Part shown: one piece after another, positions 1,753-23,230 of the stretch | Numbering within the stretch: position 1 is the first letter of the stretch | How the letters are laid out: the number at the start of each line of letters is the position of its first letter | NCBI GenBank assembly: GCA_044360285.1 | Contig: JBIKKP010000002.1 | Coordinates: forward strand, 1 to 63,210 | DNA length: 63,210 nucleotides | Direction: 5' to 3' | Source of the DNA: Rickettsiales bacterium | Lineage (GTDB): Bacteria; Pseudomonadota; Alphaproteobacteria; Rickettsiales; UBA1997 | Translations under genes and position numbers: made by a program | The notes under the pieces: generated by a model | What the model was told of the DNA's origin: nothing | The model's database searches: none | Seen by the model: the letters and a program-made list of their open reading frames with translations, nothing else

Positions 1753-3744
1753 ATGACAAACTTAGCTACGATCTTAAAGGATTCTGATTACAAATTGACT
1801 CAATTTAGCGAGTCAAAAATCAAAGCTTTGGAAAACAAAATTTTTGCCAAAGAAGGTAAGACTGGTTTTTATACCAACTGCCTTGTGCGCGAGAAAGAAA
1901 TTAAGCTCACTCCCGAAGAAACCATGCGCCAACTCTTTGTGATGGTCTTGAGTGAAGATTTTGGTTATCCAACAAAACGCCTTCAACTTGAATATAGCGT
2001 TGTTTTTGGGCGCGAAACAAAACGTGCCGATATTTGCATTTTTGACAAAGATAATCCAACCGCTGCTTATATTTTAGTTGAGCTAAAAAAGCCAAAACTC
2101 AAAGACGGTAAAGAGCAATTAAAAAGCTACTGCAACGCTACTGGAGCACCAATCGGAGTTTGGACTAATGGCGAGCAAATTTCTTTTTATCACCGCAAAG
2201 ATCCAAATTACTTTGAAGACATCCCAAACATCCCAAATGCTACTGAAAAACTTTCCGATGTTTTAGCAGAACGTTGGACAATTGATGATCTGATTAAACA
2301 CGACAAATTAGTTAATCAAAAAAAGACCTTAAAAGGAATCATTCTGGAAATGGAGGATGAGGTTCTAGCTAATGCTGGCGTGGATGTATTCGAAGAACTA
2401 TTTAAACTTATCTTCACCAAACTTTATGACGAGATGGAATCAGGACGTGACAAAAAGCGTCATCTGGTTTTCAAAAATTATGGCGACACTGAAAGCGAGC
2501 TCAAAGCCAAAATCCAAGACCTCTTCGACAAAGCTAAAAGAAAATGGGAAGGCGTTTTTTCTGAGGATGCAAAAATCCAACTAACCCAAAGCCACCTGGC
2601 TGTGTGTATTGCCTCACTTGAAACCATTAAGCTTTTCAACTCAAACCTCGAGGTAGTTGATGAAGCATTTGAATACCTCATCAACAAATCTAGCAAAGGC
2701 GAAAAAGGACAATATTTCACGCCACGCTATGTCATCGACATGTGCGTTAAAATGCTAAACCCGAAAGAAGAGGAAACTCTAATAGACACTGCATCAGGAA
2801 GTTGCGGGTTTCCTGTACATGGTATTTTCCACGTTTGGGAAAAAATTATGAATGAAGAAGGCTTAAGCAAAAGCCACTTATTCACAGCCGAGAAAAAACC
2901 AGCGCGTTGCGAAAACTATGTTCAAGAAAAAGTCTTCGCTATCGACTTCGATGAAAAAGCGGTGCGAGTTGGAAGAACTTTGAACCTGATTGCAGGCGAC
3001 GGCCAAACCAATGTTCTGCATTTAAATACCCTAGATTTTGAACGCTGGGATGAAAACACTAAAGAGGAAAGATGGCTCGATATCTACCTAGAAGGCTGGA
3101 AAAAATTAAAAAAACTCAGAAGTAAAAAAGACGACAATCATGATTTTGGTTTCGATGTTTTGATGGCAAATCCTCCCTTTGCTGGAGAAGTTAAGGAAAG
3201 CCGAATCCTTGCTAAATATGAGCTGGGTAAAAAAGAAAATGGAAAATACCAAACCAAAGTTGATCGAGATATTCTCTTTATTGAAAGAAATTTGAATTTT
3301 CTAAAACCTGGTGGACGTATGGCAGTTGTGCTTCCGCAAGGCCGCTTCAACAATTCATCCGATAAACAAATCCGCGAATTTATTGCAGAAAGATGCCGAA
3401 TTTTAGCGGTTGTCGGTCTTCACGGGAATGTTTTTAAACCTCACACCGGAACTAAAACCAGCGTGTTATTTGTGCAGAAGTGGAATGAGGACAAGAAAGC
3501 TGGTGCGCTTTGTCCAAAAATTGACGACTACCCTATTTTCTTTGCTACTATGCAAGAACCAAGCAAAGACAATTCAGGTGATAAAATTTACATTAAAAAC
3601 GCTGATGGCACACCAAAGCTCGACACTCACGGGCATTTGATCGTCAAACATGATCTCTTCAATCACGATGGATTAACCAAAGACGGCATCACAGAAGCCT
3701 TCATCGAATTTGCTAAAAAGGAGCGACTAAGTTTTTTTCTCTAA
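1753..3744 (+). CDS. hsdM: N6-adenine DNA methyltransferase (HsdM-like) with an N-terminal HsdR_N-type PD-(D/E)xK-like module
   Basis: 663 aa. SAM-binding motif 'LIDTASGSCGFP' and catalytic 'LMANPPFAGE' (NPPF). The N-terminal ~170 aa contain 'RADICIFD...YILVELKKP', a D...ExK pattern. Confidence 0.85.
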   Translation: MTNLATILKDSDYKLTQFSESKIKALENKIFAKEGKTGFYTNCLVREKEIKLTPEETMRQLFVMVLSEDFGYPTKRLQLEYSVVFGRETKRADICIFDKDNPTAAYILVELKKPKLKDGKEQLKSYCNATGAPIGVWTNGEQISFYHRKDPNYFEDIPNIPNATEKLSDVLAERWTIDDLIKHDKLVNQKKTLKGIILEMEDEVLANAGVDVFEELFKLIFTKLYDEMESGRDKKRHLVFKNYGDTESELKAKIQDLFDKAKRKWEGVFSEDAKIQLTQSHLAVCIASLETIKLFNSNLEVVDEAFEYLINKSSKGEKGQYFTPRYVIDMCVKMLNPKEEETLIDTASGSCGFPVHGIFHVWEKIMNEEGLSKSHLFTAEKKPARCENYVQEKVFAIDFDEKAVRVGRTLNLIAGDGQTNVLHLNTLDFERWDENTKEERWLDIYLEGWKKLKKLRSKKDDNHDFGFDVLMANPPFAGEVKESRILAKYELGKKENGKYQTKVDRDILFIERNLNFLKPGGRMAVVLPQGRFNNSSDKQIREFIAERCRILAVVGLHGNVFKPHTGTKTSVLFVQKWNEDKKAGALCPKIDDYPIFFATMQEPSKDNSGDKIYIKNADGTPKLDTHGHLIVKHDLFNHDGLTKDGITEAFIEFAKKERLSFFL

Positions 3745-19771: not shown

Positions 19772-22700
19772 ATGACCAAAAAATCACACTATCCTGAGGT
19801 AAATCAAAATCTCGATTTCGCCAAAATGGAGGAAGAAATTTTACGCTTCTGGCAGCAAGAAAAAGTTTTTGAAAAGTCGGTTGCAATCAGGAATACCAGC
19901 ACTCTGGACGAAGATGAAGTTTCACCAATTATCGATCATTGCTCACTAAAAGATCACACCAGCTGCCGCCACCAAGCACCAAGCACTGAGCACCAAGCAC
20001 AAGATTTCGTCTTCTATGACGGCCCGCCTTTTGCCAATGGCCTACCGCATTACGGCCACTTACTGACTGGCTTCATCAAGGATTTGGTTGCGCGTTATCA
20101 AACGATGAAAGGCAAAAAAGTTGAGCGCCGTTTTGGTTGGGATACGCATGGTTTGCCGGTGGAAATGGAAACTGAGAAAGAATTAACCGCAAAAGAAGGT
20201 CGACAAATTTCCGGCCAAATTGCGATTCAGGAATATGGAATTGAGAAGTTCAACGCGGCATGCGAGGCGTCGGTGATGAAATATGAAAGCGAGTGGGAGC
20301 ACTACGTCACGCGCCAAGGCCGGTTTGTTGATTTTAAAGACAGCTACAAAACTAAGGATCTAAAGTTTATGGAGTCAGTGCTGTGGGCTTTCCAGCAGCT
20401 TTATGATAAGGGATTACTTTATGAGGATTTCCGCGTGGTTCCTTATTCCTGGGCTTGTCAGACGCCGCTTTCGAATTTTGAGACGCGGATGGATAATTCT
20501 TACAGGCAGAAGGCTAGTAAGGCGGTGACGGTGAAGTTTGAGTTGACGGAAGAAAGTGTAAAAAAATTGCATGAACGTGTGGGCGCGGTTGCAAACCACG
20601 CCCAGCAACTACGAGTTTCATTAGTTGCTTGGACGACCACGCCGTGGACTTTGCCGTCGAATTTGGCTCTGGCGGTGGGGAAGGAAATTGAATATGCGGT
20701 AATAAAAACCAAACCCGTCATCCTTGGCGGCAAAGCCGCCGAGGATCTCTTAAGTGAGACTGCTAAACTCACGAGATCCTCGGACGCTGGCGCGTCCAAG
20801 GATGACGGAGGGTTTTTGATTCTCGCCGCCGGATTAGTTGAAAAATTCGCGAAAGATTTAGGAGAGTTTGAAATTGTAGGAAGCTGCAAAGGTGCGGATT
20901 TAGTAGGCTTAAGCTACAAATCCCTCTTCCCTTACCTCGTCGAAAAAGCCAAAAATTCTCCAAAAGCATTTACCGTTTTGCACGGCGATTTCGTTTCAAC
21001 TGACGAAGGAACCGGCATCGTCCACATGGCGCCAGGCTTTGGTGAAGATGACCAACTTTTGTGTAAGGCTAACGGAATCCCAACTCTTTGCCCGGTTGAT
21101 GAAGGCGGGAAATTTGTTGATGCGATGTTTGATATCACCCTCACCCCAACCCTCTCCCCTCAAGGGAGAGGGCTTTCATCCGAGCTCGATTCAGCTCCCT
21201 CTCCCTTGAGGGGAGAGGGTTGGGGTGAGGGTGAAAAAGATTTAACCAATCTAGCCAAAAACCTCAGAAAAAACCAAACCGACGCTGAAGAAAAATTATG
21301 GAACATCCTTCGAAGCCGACAAATCGAGAATCTAAAATTTAGAAGGCAGCATCAAATCGGAAATTACATCGCTGATTTTATATGCCTTGAGAAGAGGCTA
21401 ATTATCGAGCTCGACGGCGGTCAGCATGGTGAGGAAAAAAACATTAAATCAGATCAGGAAAGGACTCAGTTCTTGGAAAAAGAAGGTTTCAGAGTTTTAA
21501 GATTTTGGAATAATGAGGTGCTGCAAAATGCCGAGGGAGTTTATGAAAGGGTTTTAGAGAGTGTTAATCACCCTCACCCCAACCCTCTCCCCTTAAGGGA
21601 GAGGGAGCAAATCGAGCGAGAGGTTGAACCGAGTTCTAATCTAACTCTTTCACTTAAAGGCCGCCAAGTTTTCGACACCAACGACGACATCATTCGCTAC
21701 TTAAAAGCTACAGGCGCCTGGCTCAAAACCGAACAATACCTCCACAACTACCCACACTGCTGGCGCACCGACACGCCGTTGATTTATCGCGCGGTGTCGT
21801 CTTGGTATGTCAAAGTGACAGATTTCAAAGACCGCATGGTCGAGTTAAACCAAGGAATCAACTGGATCCCAAACCACATCAAAGACGGACAATTTGGCAA
21901 ATGGTTGGAAGGTGCACGCGATTGGTCGATCACGCGCAACCGCTTCTGGGGCTGTCCGGTGCCGGTTTGGAAATCGAAATCAGGGAAGATCAAAGTCTTT
22001 GGATCAATCGCCGAACTTGAAAAAGTTTCCGGCAAAAAAATTGAAAATCTGCATCGCCCGTTCATTGACGAAATCACTTTTGTTGAAAATGGCGAAGAAT
22101 TTAAACGCGTCACCGACGTGCTAGATTGCTGGTTCGAATCGGGTTCGATGCCATACGCGCAAGTACATTATCCATTCGAAAACAAAGAATGGTTTGAGCA
22201 AAATTTCCCAGCTGATTTTATCACTGAATATGTCGCACAAACTCGCGGCTGGTTCTACACGTTGATGGTTTTATCAACCGCCCTGTTTGACCGCGCACCG
22301 TTTAAAAACGTGATTTGTCACGGAACAATTTTGGACGAAAATTCGCAGAAACTTTCTAAGCGCTTACGCAACTATGCCGATCCGCTGGAGATTTTTTCGA
22401 CGTTTGGCAGTGATGCCATGCGCTTCTACATGATTTCGCAACCTGTAATGCGTGGCCAAGAATTACGCATTGATAAAGAAGGAAAAGCAATTCGCGACAC
22501 GCTGCGTTTGTCGATCAAACCGTTGATGAATGCGTTTAATTTCTTCTGCCTTTACGCCAACGCTGACGGAATTATCGCCAAACGAATTGACGCCAAACGT
22601 GAATTTAAAAACACGCTTGATCTCTATATTTTATCCAAGCTGAAAGCTGCTGTGGAAAATATCGACAAAGCAATGAGCAGCTACGACACCGTAACGTCTT

Positions 22701-22921
22701 GCGAAGAATTTACCAAATTTTTCGAAGCGCTAAATAACTGGTATATCCGCCGCAATCGCGCACGTTTTTGGAAAGAGGAAATTGATGCAGATAAGCAAGA
22801 TGCTTACGACGTGCTCTACAGCTGCTTGCTTTCAATGTGTGAGGCGGCGGCACCGCTTTTACCTTTTACAACAGAGTTTGTGTGGAAATCACTAAAATTT
22901 GAACAACGCTTGCAATCTTAA
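19772..22921 (+). CDS. ileS: Isoleucyl-tRNA synthetase, type 2, carrying three in-frame insertions and lacking the usual C-terminal extension
   Basis: 'FYDGPPFANGLPHYGHLLTG' (HIGH region), 'WCISR-like WSITRNRFWG', and 'KLSKR' (KMSKS) at ~22349-22363. It is one uninterrupted 1049-codon ORF. Confidence 0.9.
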   Translation: MTKKSHYPEVNQNLDFAKMEEEILRFWQQEKVFEKSVAIRNTSTLDEDEVSPIIDHCSLKDHTSCRHQAPSTEHQAQDFVFYDGPPFANGLPHYGHLLTGFIKDLVARYQTMKGKKVERRFGWDTHGLPVEMETEKELTAKEGRQISGQIAIQEYGIEKFNAACEASVMKYESEWEHYVTRQGRFVDFKDSYKTKDLKFMESVLWAFQQLYDKGLLYEDFRVVPYSWACQTPLSNFETRMDNSYRQKASKAVTVKFELTEESVKKLHERVGAVANHAQQLRVSLVAWTTTPWTLPSNLALAVGKEIEYAVIKTKPVILGGKAAEDLLSETAKLTRSSDAGASKDDGGFLILAAGLVEKFAKDLGEFEIVGSCKGADLVGLSYKSLFPYLVEKAKNSPKAFTVLHGDFVSTDEGTGIVHMAPGFGEDDQLLCKANGIPTLCPVDEGGKFVDAMFDITLTPTLSPQGRGLSSELDSAPSPLRGEGWGEGEKDLTNLAKNLRKNQTDAEEKLWNILRSRQIENLKFRRQHQIGNYIADFICLEKRLIIELDGGQHGEEKNIKSDQERTQFLEKEGFRVLRFWNNEVLQNAEGVYERVLESVNHPHPNPLPLREREQIEREVEPSSNLTLSLKGRQVFDTNDDIIRYLKATGAWLKTEQYLHNYPHCWRTDTPLIYRAVSSWYVKVTDFKDRMVELNQGINWIPNHIKDGQFGKWLEGARDWSITRNRFWGCPVPVWKSKSGKIKVFGSIAELEKVSGKKIENLHRPFIDEITFVENGEEFKRVTDVLDCWFESGSMPYAQVHYPFENKEWFEQNFPADFITEYVAQTRGWFYTLMVLSTALFDRAPFKNVICHGTILDENSQKLSKRLRNYADPLEIFSTFGSDAMRFYMISQPVMRGQELRIDKEGKAIRDTLRLSIKPLMNAFNFFCLYANADGIIAKRIDAKREFKNTLDLYILSKLKAAVENIDKAMSSYDTVTSCEEFTKFFEALNNWYIRRNRARFWKEEIDADKQDAYDVLYSCLLSMCEAAAPLLPFTTEFVWKSLKFEQRLQS
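20715..20807. repeat. Family-1 palindromic element, copy D, in-frame inside ileS (93 nt = 31 codons)
   Basis: CCGTCATCCTTG GCGGCaaaGCCGCC GAGGATCTC...GAGATCCTCG GACGCtggcGCGTCC AAGGATGACG. It is translated as 'PVILGGKAAEDLLSETAKLTRSSDAGASKDD'. Confidence 0.9.
21135..21172 (+). repeat. 38-nt G/C-rich repeat 'a' (TCACCCTCACCCCAACCCTCTCCCCTCAAGGGAGAGGG), solo copy
   Basis: Exact reverse complement of 21197-21234. It differs by 1 nt from 21578-21615. Confidence 0.95.
21197..21234 (-). repeat. 38-nt repeat, inverted copy (left terminal inverted repeat of the DUF559 cassette)
   Basis: CCCTCTCCCTTGAGGGGAGAGGGTTGGGGTGAGGGTGA is the exact reverse complement of 21135-21172. Confidence 0.95.
21578..21615 (+). 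repeat. 38-nt repeat, right terminal inverted repeat of the DUF559 cassette
   Basis: TCACCCTCACCCCAACCCTCTCCCCTTAAGGGAGAGGG, with a single mismatch to copy 'a'. Confidence 0.95.
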
Positions 22922-22969: not shown

Positions 22970-23230
22970 ATGGCCGAAAATAATTTTCGAAATTCAGGAA
23001 TGGCTACACCACAAGCTCTAACAAAACAGCAATCAAGTCACCGGTCAGCAGAAAGCACTTATGCCGGAGCTCTTGGTAGAGTAGCTTCAAATAGTATTTT
23101 GAAAGATATTCCAACGGGAGCATTATCAGCAACAAAAGTTGGTAAACTTGCCGGTAAATCTGTTGATCTTGACGCCCTGGGCGGAGACTCTCTTGATGCT
23201 TTAATGAACAGCGGAAAAAAAGGTAGATAA
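22970..23230 (+). CDS. Hypothetical small protein (86 aa); coding status doubtful
   Basis: ATG ORF in the same frame as ileS, 48 nt after its stop. No obvious SD. It is followed by a strong hairpin terminator, and I recognise no family. Confidence 0.3.
   Translation: MAENNFRNSGMATPQALTKQQSSHRSAESTYAGALGRVASNSILKDIPTGALSATKVGKLAGKSVDLDALGGDSLDALMNSGKKGR

What the first reader, a model, noticed from the sequence alone, without database searches (positions are those of the whole stretch)
21135..21615. DUF559 (Vsr-like endonuclease) cassette with 38-nt terminal inverted repeats embedded in-frame in an essential aminoacyl-tRNA synthetase gene
IleRS sequence resumes normally on both sides, with '...GGKFVDAMFDI' before and 'LKGRQVFDTNDDIIRYL...HNYPHCWRTDTPLIY' after. 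Between them lies ~175 codons of foreign sequence. First comes a solo 38-mer (21135-21172). Its exact reverse complement follows (21197-21234). Then comes a complete DUF559 domain ('LRKNQTDAEEKLWNILRSRQ...IELDGGQH...LRFWNNEVLQN'). A third 38-mer closes the insert (21578-21615, 1 mismatch). The inverted 38-mers thus bracket the endonuclease domain like the terminal repeats of a miniature transposon. Each 38-mer also contains its own hairpin (CCCTCTCCCC..GGGAGAGGG). The domain has no in-frame start codon of its own, so it can only be made as part of IleRS, with translated repeats reading 'TLTPTLSPQGRG', 'PSPLRGEGWGEGE' and 'HPHPNPLPLRERE'. No intein splicing motifs are visible. An essential synthetase that either tolerates or exploits an embedded nuclease domain is highly unusual.
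Basis: partly seen in the sequence, partly recalled or inferred. Interest (0 to 1): 0.82.

Follow-up and report, generated by a model that had tools for sequence, protein, structure and literature searches.

The report
Nuclease cassette inside isoleucyl-tRNA synthetase gene
A small nuclease gene, bracketed by inverted copies of the old and unexplained bacterial "BoxC" triplex repeat, sits in frame inside an essential tRNA synthetase gene and is kept intact by selection, which for the first time suggests an enzyme partner for that repeat family.

Summary
The ileS ORF (19772-22921) carries a 510-nt in-frame insert (21137-21646). The insert holds a full-length DUF559 (Vsr-fold) nuclease domain between inverted 38-mers, with an extra 38-mer that forms a 100-nt palindrome. 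The third repeat is at 21568-21605, not 21578-21615.

It is neither an artefact nor a pseudogene. Eighteen other IleRS proteins from independent assemblies carry DUF559 at the same site. Both the IleRS parts and the insert are under purifying selection, and all DUF559 signature residues are retained. No intein features are present.

The closest relative, which is syntenic, has an empty site. The embedded DUF559s form one clade, but carriers are scattered in the host tree. One pair shows lateral movement of the insert between ileS alleles.

The 38-mer is the known BoxC / PIT / "TM" intrastrand-triplex motif, nearly identical to E. coli copies. Free-standing DUF559 genes across phyla, including E. 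coli ycjD, are flanked by these motifs in the same inverted orientation. I found no paper that makes this link.

Best reading: a selfish DUF559-BoxC cassette translated as an internal IleRS domain. Nuclease action on the repeat, and homing, are inferred.

The parts
19772..22921 (+). ileS ORF (type-2, eukaryote-like IleRS), 1049 aa including the insert. It is C-terminally short, like the whole clade.
   Evidence: ORF listing. Pfam tRNA-synt_1 at 426 bits, Anticodon_1 positions 1-93 of 148. PDB IleRS hits at E = 3.6e-195. dN/dS 0.05-0.13 against relatives.
21137..21646 (+). The whole in-frame insert (510 nt, aa 456-625) relative to the empty allele. It replaces 6 nt (GATGAG) and has no target-site duplication.
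   Evidence: DNA comparison with the empty site in syntenic locus L112 and with filled sites in L094, L066 and L114. WIN is 1049 aa and L112 is 881 aa, a difference of 168 codons.
21135..21184 (+). Repeat unit R1: BoxC/TM motif with the C-rich strand on the coding strand (38-mer 21135-21172), plus tail CTTTCATCCGAG. This extra copy is absent from most other carriers. It translates as TLTPTLSPQGRG.
21185..21234 (-). Repeat unit R2: inverted BoxC/TM motif (38-mer 21197-21234, G-rich strand on the coding strand) plus tail. It is the left terminal inverted repeat of the DUF559 cassette and translates as PSPLRGEGWGEGE.
   Evidence: Exact reverse complement of R1. It differs from E. coli TMECO #2 by one extra G and one A/G change over 35 nt.
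21135..21234 (.). 100-nt palindrome (R1 + R2), a REPIN-like inverted doublet like the BoxC doublets of E. coli.
   Evidence: Fold -52.7 kcal/mol, z = -13.8. The E. coli wcaA-wzc doublet has the same architecture. Five such doublets are reported in K-12 (PMC4666352).
21239..21565 (+). DUF559 (PF04480) Vsr-fold PD-(D/E)xK nuclease domain, aa 490-598, with all family signature residues.
   Evidence: Pfam E = 7e-40. PDB 3HRL at E = 1.4e-23. Signature residues are kept in all 19 embedded copies. AF2 pLDDT is 85-92 for this domain. pN 0.14-0.20 against pS 0.69-0.86.
21568..21617 (+). Repeat unit R3: BoxC/TM motif (38-mer 21568-21605, 1 mismatch to R1) plus tail AGCAAATCGAGC. It is the right terminal inverted repeat and translates as HPHPNPLPLRERE.
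   Evidence: 41-nt inverted repeat with 21194-21234, 98% complementary.
21618..21646 (+). Trailing linker of the insert, with a second tail-like piece GTTGAACCGAG. Its length varies among carriers.

Best explanation
The insert is a selfish gene cassette. It consists of a YcjD-type DUF559 nuclease gene bounded by inverted copies of the BoxC/PIT/TM motif, which is a C-rich box followed by a pyrimidine/purine hairpin that can form an intrastrand triplex.

One such cassette entered a surface loop near the C-terminal end of the CP1 editing domain of the compact IleRS of an uncultured Rickettsiales-like alphaproteobacterial clade. It has no splicing device and no start of its own, so it is translated through as an internal domain of IleRS. 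The repeat-encoded Pro/Gly/Ser/Glu-rich peptides act as flexible linkers, and the nuclease folds as an independent module, so the synthetase still works. Because the host gene is essential, any frameshift or stop in the cassette is lethal, which shelters it from decay.

Shown here:
- the in-frame architecture;
- recurrence at one site in 19 IleRS genes;
- purifying selection on host and insert;
- retention of all nuclease signature residues;
- a single origin of the embedded DUF559 clade;
- a patchy host distribution;
- one case of lateral transfer of the insert together with its flanks;
- identity of the repeats with BoxC/TM;
- a general, orientation-specific association of free-standing DUF559 genes with these motifs.

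Inferred, not shown:
- that the nuclease acts on the repeat or on empty ileS alleles, giving homing-like spread in a way comparable to the RAYT/REPIN partnership;
- that the fusion protein is made and is active.
For: Architecture.

Recurrence: 18 other IleRS proteins carry PF04480 at the same site, between 'FDI' and 'LSLKGRQVF'. Locus L094 shows the same synteny.

Selection: IleRS parts have dN/dS of 0.05-0.13. In DUF559, pS is 0.69-0.86 and pN is 0.14-0.20, while the 38-mers stay nearly identical. Every residue that is at least 93% conserved in 120 free-standing DUF559s is kept in the 19 embedded copies.

Structure: AF2 gives pLDDT 85-92 for the DUF559 domain and below 50 for the linkers at 461-488 and 602-619.

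Origin and spread:
- The embedded DUF559s form a single clade against 120 free-standing ones.
- WIN, P0003 and P0007 are each significantly closer to non-carriers than to any carrier (bootstrap 1.0).
- The closest relative, L112, is syntenic and has an empty site.
- P0003 compared with P0002/P0004: DUF559 is 92-95% identical but the IleRS core only 85%. Synonymous divergence falls to 0.13-0.47 across the insert and its flanks, against 0.5-0.84 elsewhere in the gene.

Identity of the repeat: BoxC/TM, from PMC4666352 and E. coli matches.

Association of DUF559 with TM:
- 66 of 80 free-standing loci have a perfect hairpin at the domain end, against 6 of 74 controls.
- Exact flanking inverted repeats of at least 14 nt occur in 32 of 73 loci, against 0 of 66 controls.
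- Under a strict TM definition, the downstream flank has 34 of 76 in C-strand orientation and 2 of 76 in G-strand orientation. The upstream flank has 30 of 77 in G-strand orientation and 9 of 77 in C-strand orientation. Controls give 3 of 147.
- E. coli K-12 ycjD runs into a degenerate TM with the same CAGACCGAG tail and is followed by TMECO #9.
Against: No expression or protein data exist for these uncultured organisms.

The overall AF2 model is poor (pTM 0.43), so the position of the domain relative to the IleRS core is not established.

There is no target-site duplication and no known transposase. The mechanism of entry is unknown.

Only 9 of 111 loci holding the exact 37-mer have a DUF559 gene within the fetched 8 kb. 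This fits one gene with many repeats, but it equally fits repeats that are mobilised by something else and merely accumulate at DUF559 gene ends.

DUF559 and host distances correlate (r = 0.69). Much of the pattern could therefore be vertical descent with losses, and the one clear transfer could be ordinary homologous recombination rather than nuclease-driven homing.

Conservation of catalytic residues could partly reflect folding constraints.

The trees are neighbour-joining only.
Confidence: 0.6

Rival explanations
1. Exaptation. The DUF559 domain has been recruited for a host function of IleRS or of the cell, for example DNA repair or defence coupled to translation, or a nucleic-acid-binding module. 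It would then be kept by host-level selection rather than as a selfish element.
For: The domain is under strong purifying selection and keeps all signature residues. It has been retained across deeply diverged carriers, with synonymous sites saturated. IleRS in this clade also hosts another inserted domain, a GNAT acetyltransferase, in some members.
Against: Most of the clade, including the closest relative, lacks the insert and has a clean two-residue loop at the site. The insert is therefore dispensable for IleRS. The flanking BoxC repeats and the local repeat expansions in P0011, P0012 and WIN R1 are typical of selfish DNA. Free-standing homologues have the same repeat architecture.
Confidence: 0.15
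2. Inert passenger. The cassette inserted once by accident and is simply tolerated. Selection acts only to keep a compact, soluble fold so that IleRS is not poisoned. The nuclease is inactive or irrelevant, and the patchiness reflects repeated loss or allelic recombination.
For: Insert and host distances correlate (r = 0.69). No cleavage target has been demonstrated. P0023 carries a repeat-only remnant at the same site, which shows that losses occur.
Against: All predicted catalytic and signature residues (D51, E62, D64, H68 and others, in domain numbering) are invariant in 19 copies that are only 64-100% identical overall. The 38-mers are held nearly invariant at the DNA level while neighbouring synonymous sites are saturated. 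A folding constraint on the protein does not explain that.
Confidence: 0.2
3. The insert is removed before or during protein synthesis, by an intein-like splice, an RNA-level excision using the 41-nt inverted repeats, or ribosomal bypassing. Mature IleRS would then lack it.
For: Long inverted repeats bracket the domain and could bring the junctions together in RNA. Hairpin-dependent bypassing exists in phage T4 gene 60 (own knowledge).
Against: Pfam finds no Hint/intein domain. There is no conserved Cys/Ser/Thr or His-Asn at the junctions, whose sequences and lengths vary among carriers. The insert stays in frame with ileS in all 19 carriers and evolves as translated protein without a start of its own. 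Rfam finds no ribozyme or intron.
Confidence: 0.03
4. The feature is an assembly chimera, or this ileS is a decaying pseudogene.
For: The window comes from an uncultured organism. The ORF lacks the usual C-terminal 250 residues or so of IleRS.
Against: The same insert at the same site appears in 18 other proteins from independent samples and assemblers. The short C-terminus is shared by more than 100 relatives of 808-930 aa. dN/dS is 0.05-0.13. The ORF is intact.
Confidence: 0.01

Closest known systems
BoxC / PIT element / TM (TMECO) intrastrand-triplex repeats of E. coli and more than 260 other bacterial genomes (Holder et al. 2015, PMC4666352; earlier work by Bergler, by Bachellier and by Hoyne/Maher is cited there)
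   Same: The 38-mer has the same three-block design: CCCTCTCCC, loop, GGGAGAGGG, TTR, GGGTGAGGG. It differs from E. coli TMECO #2 by one indel and one substitution. Inverted doublets like 21135-21234 also occur in E. coli.
   Different: In E. coli the motif was reported as always intergenic and never next to mobility genes. Here three copies lie inside an essential ORF, are translated, and bracket a nuclease gene.
REP/REPIN repeats with their single-copy RAYT gene (PMC3116915, PMC3337134)
   Same: A single-copy nuclease-type gene is flanked by inverted hairpin repeats. The same repeat is dispersed in the genome as singlets and as hairpin-forming inverted doublets. The repeat variant next to the gene matches the dispersed variant.
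   Different: The enzyme is a Vsr-fold PD-(D/E)xK DUF559 protein, not an HUH Y1 transposase. The repeat is a triplex-type motif without a GTAG tag. No activity on the repeat has been shown.
[quoted passage not shown]
   Same: Palindromic selfish DNA is inserted in frame into conserved housekeeping genes of a Rickettsiales-like lineage. It is translated as an extra surface peptide that is compatible with function. A solo TM motif lies in frame in leuS of a relative (L102).
   Different: RPEs are about 100-150 bp and carry no enzyme. This insert carries a complete, selected nuclease domain. Sequence relatedness to RPE families was not tested.
Vsr-like (EDxHD) homing endonucleases such as I-Bth0305I, and the 'fractured gene' endonucleases (PMC3239194, PMC2677866); inteins with homing endonuclease domains
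   Same: A Vsr-fold nuclease resides inside a conserved essential gene. Its distribution among close relatives is patchy. There is evidence that the insert moved between alleles together with flanking sequence.
   Different: There is no intron, intein or split intein, so the nuclease remains in the mature host protein. DUF559 is a different branch of the Vsr-like group. Cleavage of the empty allele has not been tested.

Membership tests
DUF559 (PF04480), Vsr-like PD-(D/E)xK nucleases | Match to the Pfam model above the gathering score over the full domain | tested here: met
   135.7 bits against a cut-off of 20.6, profile positions 2-108 of 109. PDB 3HRL at E = 1.4e-23.
DUF559 (PF04480), Vsr-like PD-(D/E)xK nucleases | Conserved signature and catalytic residues (D-F, E-x-D-G-x-x-H, R-F-W and others) | tested here: met
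   All columns that are at least 93% conserved in 120 free-standing members are retained in WIN and in the other 18 embedded copies.
DUF559 (PF04480), Vsr-like PD-(D/E)xK nucleases | Endonuclease activity | not testable with these tools
   This needs biochemistry.
BoxC / PIT / TM intrastrand-triplex motif | Three consecutive blocks (C-block, G-block, G-block) with short loops, close to the TMECO consensus | tested here: met
   Window 21197-21234 is CCCTCTCCCTTGAGGGGAGAGGGTTGGGGTGAGGGTGA. TMECO #2 is CCCTCTCCCTTGAGGGAGAGGGTTAGGGTGAGGGT. 4261 of 5426 E. coli genomes match the 100-nt palindrome.
BoxC / PIT / TM intrastrand-triplex motif | Intergenic location, as reported for all 23 E. coli K-12 copies | tested here: not met
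   All three copies lie inside the ileS ORF and are translated. This is a descriptive feature from one species rather than a defining one.
BoxC / PIT / TM intrastrand-triplex motif | Formation of an intrastrand triplex | not testable with these tools
   Only hairpin folding was computed. Triplex formation was shown in vitro for the E. coli motifs (PMC4666352).
Intein | Hint domain; Cys/Ser/Thr at the N-terminal junction; His-Asn followed by Cys/Ser/Thr at the C-terminal junction | tested here: not met
   No Hint domain in Pfam. Junctions read FDI|TLTP... and ...NLT|LSLKG, and they vary among carriers.
Transposon / MITE with terminal inverted repeats | Terminal inverted repeats | tested here: met
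   41-nt arms, 98% complementary, 333 nt apart.
Transposon / MITE with terminal inverted repeats | Target-site duplication and a recognised transposase | tested here: not met
   There is no duplication at the filled site compared with the empty site; 6 nt are replaced. The only encoded domain is DUF559.
REP/RAYT (REPIN) system | Gene flanked by inverted hairpin repeats that are also dispersed as singlets and doublets | tested here: met
   E. coli ycjD with 23 TMECO copies.
REP/RAYT (REPIN) system | The gene encodes an HUH Y1 (IS200/IS605-like) transposase, and the REP carries a GTAG/CGTC tag | tested here: not met
   The domain is PF04480, not Y1_Tnp. The repeat has no GTAG tag.
Homing endonuclease gene | Presence/absence polymorphism at one site of a conserved gene, with lateral transfer between alleles | tested here: inconclusive
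   The distribution is patchy. One clear transfer with reduced flanking synonymous divergence was found. However, host and insert distances correlate overall (r = 0.69).
Homing endonuclease gene | The nuclease cleaves the empty allele | not testable with these tools
   This needs an in vitro assay on the L112-type site ATGTTCGACATCGATGAGCTTTCAATC.
Rickettsia palindromic element-like in-frame insertion | Palindromic repeat inserted in frame in a conserved gene that stays under purifying selection | tested here: met
   A solo TM motif in frame in leuS of L102.
Rickettsia palindromic element-like in-frame insertion | Sequence homology to the described RPE families | not tested

The most novel reading that the evidence does not exclude
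YcjD-type DUF559 nucleases are the long-missing enzymatic partners of the BoxC/PIT/TM triplex repeats. This would be a pan-bacterial repeat-nuclease system analogous to RAYT/REPIN, in which the nuclease recognises the hairpin or triplex motif and drives its copying and the associated genome rearrangements. The ileS copy would be a new kind of homing element. It needs neither intron nor intein, because its own repeat-encoded linkers let it live as a permanent internal domain of an essential enzyme.
Probability: 0.3. Interest if true: 0.85.

Novelty: new variant of a known kind. Interest (0 to 1): 0.72.

Why it matters
First, this is a natural case of a complete, selected nuclease domain living permanently inside an essential aminoacyl-tRNA synthetase without any splicing. 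It recurs in a clade. This bears on how selfish elements colonise essential genes, and on where IleRS tolerates large insertions.

Second, BoxC/PIT/TM repeats have been known since the early 1990s and occur in hundreds of genomes. They form triplexes in vitro and mark unstable loci. The 2015 survey found no mobility gene near them. The orientation-specific association with DUF559 genes found here includes E. coli K-12 ycjD, which lies next to TMECO #9. This yields a directly testable hypothesis in a model organism: purified YcjD assayed on TM DNA, and a ycjD deletion scored for instability at TM loci.

Tried and rejected
Rfam on the region and on the whole window gave only sub-threshold hits of long-hairpin miRNA models and no real family.

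My first tblastn of DUF559 against the repeat loci used the wrong reading frame. I repeated it correctly.

A MAFFT alignment of the downstream motifs could not handle the variable loop lengths. I therefore scored hairpins and orientation with my own scripts rather than a covariance model.

Alternatives rejected:
- Intein, intron or bypass.
- Pseudogene or truncation: the short C-terminus is clade-wide.
- Integron attC site: rejected by inspection, because the repeat has no R'/R'' core sites.
- Intrinsic terminator: rejected by inspection, because no T-run follows the hairpin.
- Second ileS in the window: none. The other large ORFs are a hybrid histidine kinase, PheT, a TonB-dependent receptor and a restriction-modification enzyme.

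The phage and plasmid collections hold few relatives of the cassette: 3 phage records at under 50% identity, and only repeat matches in 'plasmids'. No vehicle for its spread was identified.

The AF2 model of the whole protein was too poor (pTM 0.43) to place the domain relative to the IleRS core, so I ran no fold search on it.

Literature searches for DUF559, COG2852, PF04480, ycjD, BoxC and IleRS with endonuclease found no paper that links DUF559 to BoxC or describes the IleRS insert. The nearest hint is that 'DUF559 domain-containing protein' is 14-fold enriched among predicted inversion targets flanked by inverted repeats (PMC9881135).
Full report
**1. The observation**

The window encodes one uninterrupted ileS ORF, 19772..22921 on the + strand, 1049 aa. 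Repeat finding and pattern search place the 38-mer at three positions:
- 21135-21172 (+);
- 21197-21234, an exact reverse complement;
- 21568-21605 (+), with one mismatch.

No match is expected by chance. Each copy holds a 9-bp hairpin, CCCTCTCCC/GGGAGAGGG. The first two copies plus a 24-nt linker form a 100-nt palindrome, -52.7 kcal/mol as DNA, z = -13.8.

Pfam finds a full-length DUF559 domain at aa 490-598 (135.7 bits, profile positions 2-108 of 109), sitting between the tRNA-synt_1 halves. Alignment to solved IleRS structures stops at aa 454 and resumes at 628/629. The last aligned stretch before the insert lies in the CP1 editing-domain fragments 1UE0, 1WK8 and 1WNY, about 25 residues before their C-terminal end. 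These three are the only copies of the repeat in the 63-kb window.

**2. Delimiting the insert**

The closest relative found is P0015, encoded on locus L112. It is syntenic with the window (autotransporter, PPDK, glyS, hom, ileS, asd, lpxB) and has an empty site...ATGTTCGACATC GATGAG CTTTCAATC....

Against it the insert is 21137-21646, which is 510 nt or aa 456-625. It replaces six bases and has no target-site duplication.

In this alphaproteobacterial group the repeat unit is about 50 nt: the 38-mer plus a tail of the form AGnnnAnCGAG. The window holds R1(+) at 21135-21184, R2(-) at 21185-21234, DUF559, R3(+) at 21568-21617, and a trailing linker. Other carriers (L094, L066, L114) have only R2 and R3, so R1 is a local addition.

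**3. Not an artefact, pseudogene or intein**

- A database search found 18 further IleRS proteins with PF04480 at the same site. They come from NCBI, JGI, ENA and Logan assemblies, and JGI names them 'isoleucyl-tRNA synthetase/very-short-patch-repair endonuclease'.
- More than 100 relatives without the insert are 808-930 aa long and end at the same C-terminal point. The short C-terminus (Anticodon_1 positions 1-93 of 148) is therefore a clade feature, not decay.
- Nei-Gojobori estimates give dN/dS of 0.05-0.13 for the IleRS parts. In DUF559, pS is 0.69-0.86 (saturated) and pN is 0.14-0.20.
- Every column that is at least 93% conserved in 120 free-standing DUF559 proteins is retained in the 19 embedded copies, including D51, E62, D64 and H68 in domain numbering.
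- There is no Hint domain, and junction residues are not conserved.
- The only in-frame start-type codon before the domain is a TTG inside the hairpin, with no Shine-Dalgarno sequence, so independent initiation is unlikely.
- An AF2 model is poor overall (mean pLDDT 61.8, pTM 0.43). It does predict DUF559 as a confident independent domain (pLDDT 85-92), flanked by low-confidence linkers at 461-488 and 602-619, which are the repeat-encoded peptides.

**4. Evolutionary pattern**

In a neighbour-joining tree all 19 embedded DUF559 domains form one clade against the 120 best free-standing homologues. This points to a single capture.

In the IleRS core (812 columns, 77-97% identity) carriers are scattered:
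- WIN is 89.9% identical to the non-carrier P0015 and 85.1% to the nearest carrier;
- P0003 is 91.4% identical to its nearest non-carrier and 84.9% to its nearest carrier;
- P0007 is 93.1% and 83.0% respectively.

Each of these has bootstrap support of 1.0.

Insert and host distances correlate (r = 0.69), so much of the history may be vertical. One pair is a clear outlier. P0003 compared with P0002/P0004 has 92-95% DUF559 identity but only 85% core identity. At the DNA level, synonymous divergence drops to 0.13-0.47 across the insert and its immediate flanks, against 0.5-0.84 elsewhere in the gene. This is what transfer of the insert between ileS alleles with co-conversion of flanks would leave. 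It does not show that the nuclease caused the transfer.

P0023 carries a repeat-only remnant at the site. P0011, P0012 and WIN show local repeat expansions.

**5. What the 38-mer is**

An exact search for the 37-mer found 111 loci in very diverse phyla: Dehalococcoidia, Syntrophaceae, Nitrospinota, Omnitrophota, Marinobacter, Thiobacillus, Rickettsiales and one archaeal MAG. The flanks are unrelated between phyla, and inverted partners are frequent.

BLAST against E. coli genomes matched 4261 of 5426 genomes. The wcaA-wzc intergenic doublet has the same architecture as the window's palindrome.

The literature identifies this repeat as BoxC, also called the PIT element or 'TM/TMECO' intrastrand-triplex motif (Holder et al. 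2015, PMC4666352). TMECO #2 is CCCTCTCCCTTGAGGGAGAGGGTTAGGGTGAGGGT. It differs from window 21197-21231 by one extra G and one A/G change. That paper reports:
- the motif occurs in more than 260 genomes;
- all 23 E. coli K-12 copies are intergenic;
- five inverted doublets occur in K-12;
- the motif forms a triplex in vitro;
- its loci are associated with rearrangement among strains;
- explicitly, no transposase or integrase lies nearby.

**6. A general link between DUF559 and BoxC/TM**

Most free-standing homologues of the insert (107-198 aa, many phyla) end in repeat-encoded tails such as HPHPNPLPxRERE, SPSPxPSP or HPPLNPLPSREGK. Several begin with PSPLRGEGWGEG.

I analysed 80 independent genomic DUF559 loci:
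- 66 have a perfect hairpin of at least 7 bp, with a pyrimidine-rich 5' arm, within -40 to +120 nt of the domain end. Controls give 6 of 74.
- Different stems keep pairing through double changes: CCCTCTCCC/GGGAGAGGG, CCCCTCCC/GGGAGGGG and CCTTCCCCC/GGGGGAAGG.
- Exact inverted repeats of at least 14 nt link the two flanks in 32 of 73 loci, against 0 of 66 controls.
- Under a strict definition (C-rich box plus hairpin), the downstream copy is in C-strand orientation in 34 of 76 loci and in G-strand orientation in 2 of 76. The upstream copy is in G-strand orientation in 30 of 77 and in C-strand orientation in 9 of 77. Controls give 3 of 147.

This is the arrangement seen in the window.

In E. coli K-12, the ycjD gene (b1289, DUF559) runs into a degenerate motif, CACCCTCTCCCTGAAAGAGCGAGGGGG-CAGACCGAG. 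Its tail is the same as in the alphaproteobacterial unit. A partial duplicate of the gene's 3' end follows, and then TMECO #9. ycjD occupies the fabI-sapF locus where other phylogroups carry eefRABCD (PMC12817139).

Conversely, only 9 of 111 loci with the exact 37-mer have DUF559 within 8 kb. This is expected for one gene with many repeats, but it also fits repeats that merely accumulate at DUF559 ends.

I found no paper that makes this link. The nearest hint is that DUF559 proteins are 14-fold enriched among predicted programmed-inversion targets flanked by inverted repeats (PMC9881135).

**7. Mechanism**

Shown:
- the cassette is in frame;
- it is conserved as protein;
- it is bounded by BoxC/TM motifs that are held nearly invariant at the DNA level while neighbouring synonymous sites are saturated;
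- it is dispensable for the clade's IleRS;
- it has a single origin but a patchy distribution;
- it was exchanged between alleles at least once.

Inferred:
- it is translated as an internal IleRS domain, with the repeat peptides as flexible linkers;
- residence in an essential gene shelters it from frameshift decay;
- its nuclease acts on the TM structure or on empty alleles to promote copying, in a manner like RAYT/REPIN or like homing.

The rivals are host exaptation, an inert tolerated passenger, removal from the product, and artefact. They are weighed in the Rival explanations section of this report. The last two are essentially excluded.

**8. Comparison with known systems**

The feature works like an RPE-type in-frame palindromic insertion (PMC10969869) that carries a gene. 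It also works like a homing endonuclease gene without an intron or intein. The Vsr-like homing endonucleases are a precedent for the fold (PMC3239194, PMC2677866). Its gene-plus-repeat architecture parallels RAYT/REPIN (PMC3116915). It fails the defining tests for intein, canonical transposon and RAYT. It is a true member of DUF559, and its repeats are true BoxC/TM motifs.

**9. Verdict**

The case is recurrent rather than unique, and its repeats belong to a known family. The new element is the connection between that family and DUF559 nucleases, together with the intein-less residence of such a cassette in an essential synthetase. I rate it a new variant of known kinds, with interest 0.72.

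Noticed in passing
window 22880-22921 (3' end of ileS); relatives P0015-P0120: The whole IleRS clade is C-terminally short. It ends at about residue 790 of human IARS1 and matches Pfam Anticodon_1 only at positions 1-93 of 148, so it lacks the usual 250 or so C-terminal residues. More than 100 relatives of 808-930 aa share this end under strong purifying selection. How the anticodon is recognised is unclear.
   Followed up: partly
relatives P0005, P0012, P0063, P0087, P0049, P0096; equivalent to about window 21854 (after aa 694): Some IleRS of the clade carry a second in-frame insert, a GNAT acetyltransferase domain of about 190-280 aa (PF13420, PF13302, PF00583). It occurs with or without the DUF559 insert and has no obvious BoxC-encoded linkers.
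   Followed up: partly
L102:125-2677 (-), motif at L102:1501-1537: The leuS gene of Alphaproteobacteria bacterium RIFCSPLOWO2_01_FULL_40_26 has a solo BoxC/TM motif inserted in frame ('GQTPSPLRGEGWGEGDLPY'). The repeat therefore behaves like a Rickettsia palindromic element in this lineage.
   Followed up: partly
L199 (E. coli K-12 NC_000913.3 1351040-1351840): The DUF559 gene ycjD ends in a degenerate BoxC motif with the same CAGACCGAG tail as the alphaproteobacterial unit. A partial duplicate of its own 3' end follows, and then TMECO #9. According to PMC12817139 the gene sits where other E. coli phylogroups carry eefRABCD.
   Followed up: partly
L005, L009, L013, L019, L026, L049, L053-L056 and other Syntrophaceae / delta-proteobacterial loci: In these MAGs the exact 37-mer is the core of a longer repeat of about 150 nt (...GATTGCCACGCCTCGGAAAATC-37mer-AGATTATGGAAGGGGTTTGCTAGAGGCTCGGCTCGCAATGAC...), present in many copies per genome.
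   Followed up: no
P0011, P0014, P0018 (IleRS carriers), C-terminal side of the insert: These proteins show tandem expansions of repeat-derived peptides (for example LSPQGRGLERENLSPQGRGLEREN...) of up to about 100 extra residues. The hairpin units multiply locally inside the ORF while keeping the reading frame.
   Followed up: no
window 19880-19990 (IleRS aa ~36-72): The clade has its own N-terminal segment with a conserved Cys/His pattern (SP..(D/E)xC(S/A)LKDH..CRH). It is absent from solved IleRS structures and was predicted with low confidence. It may bind metal.
   Followed up: no
window 1753-3741 (+): This ORF fuses HSDR_N_2, N6_Mtase and Eco57I methylase domains, which suggests a single-chain restriction-modification enzyme.
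   Followed up: no
window 22970-23230 (+): An 86-aa ORF with no Pfam match lies downstream of ileS. At this position relatives (L112, L115, L117) have an unannotated ORF of 343-360 aa on the opposite strand, so the locus is variable.
   Followed up: no
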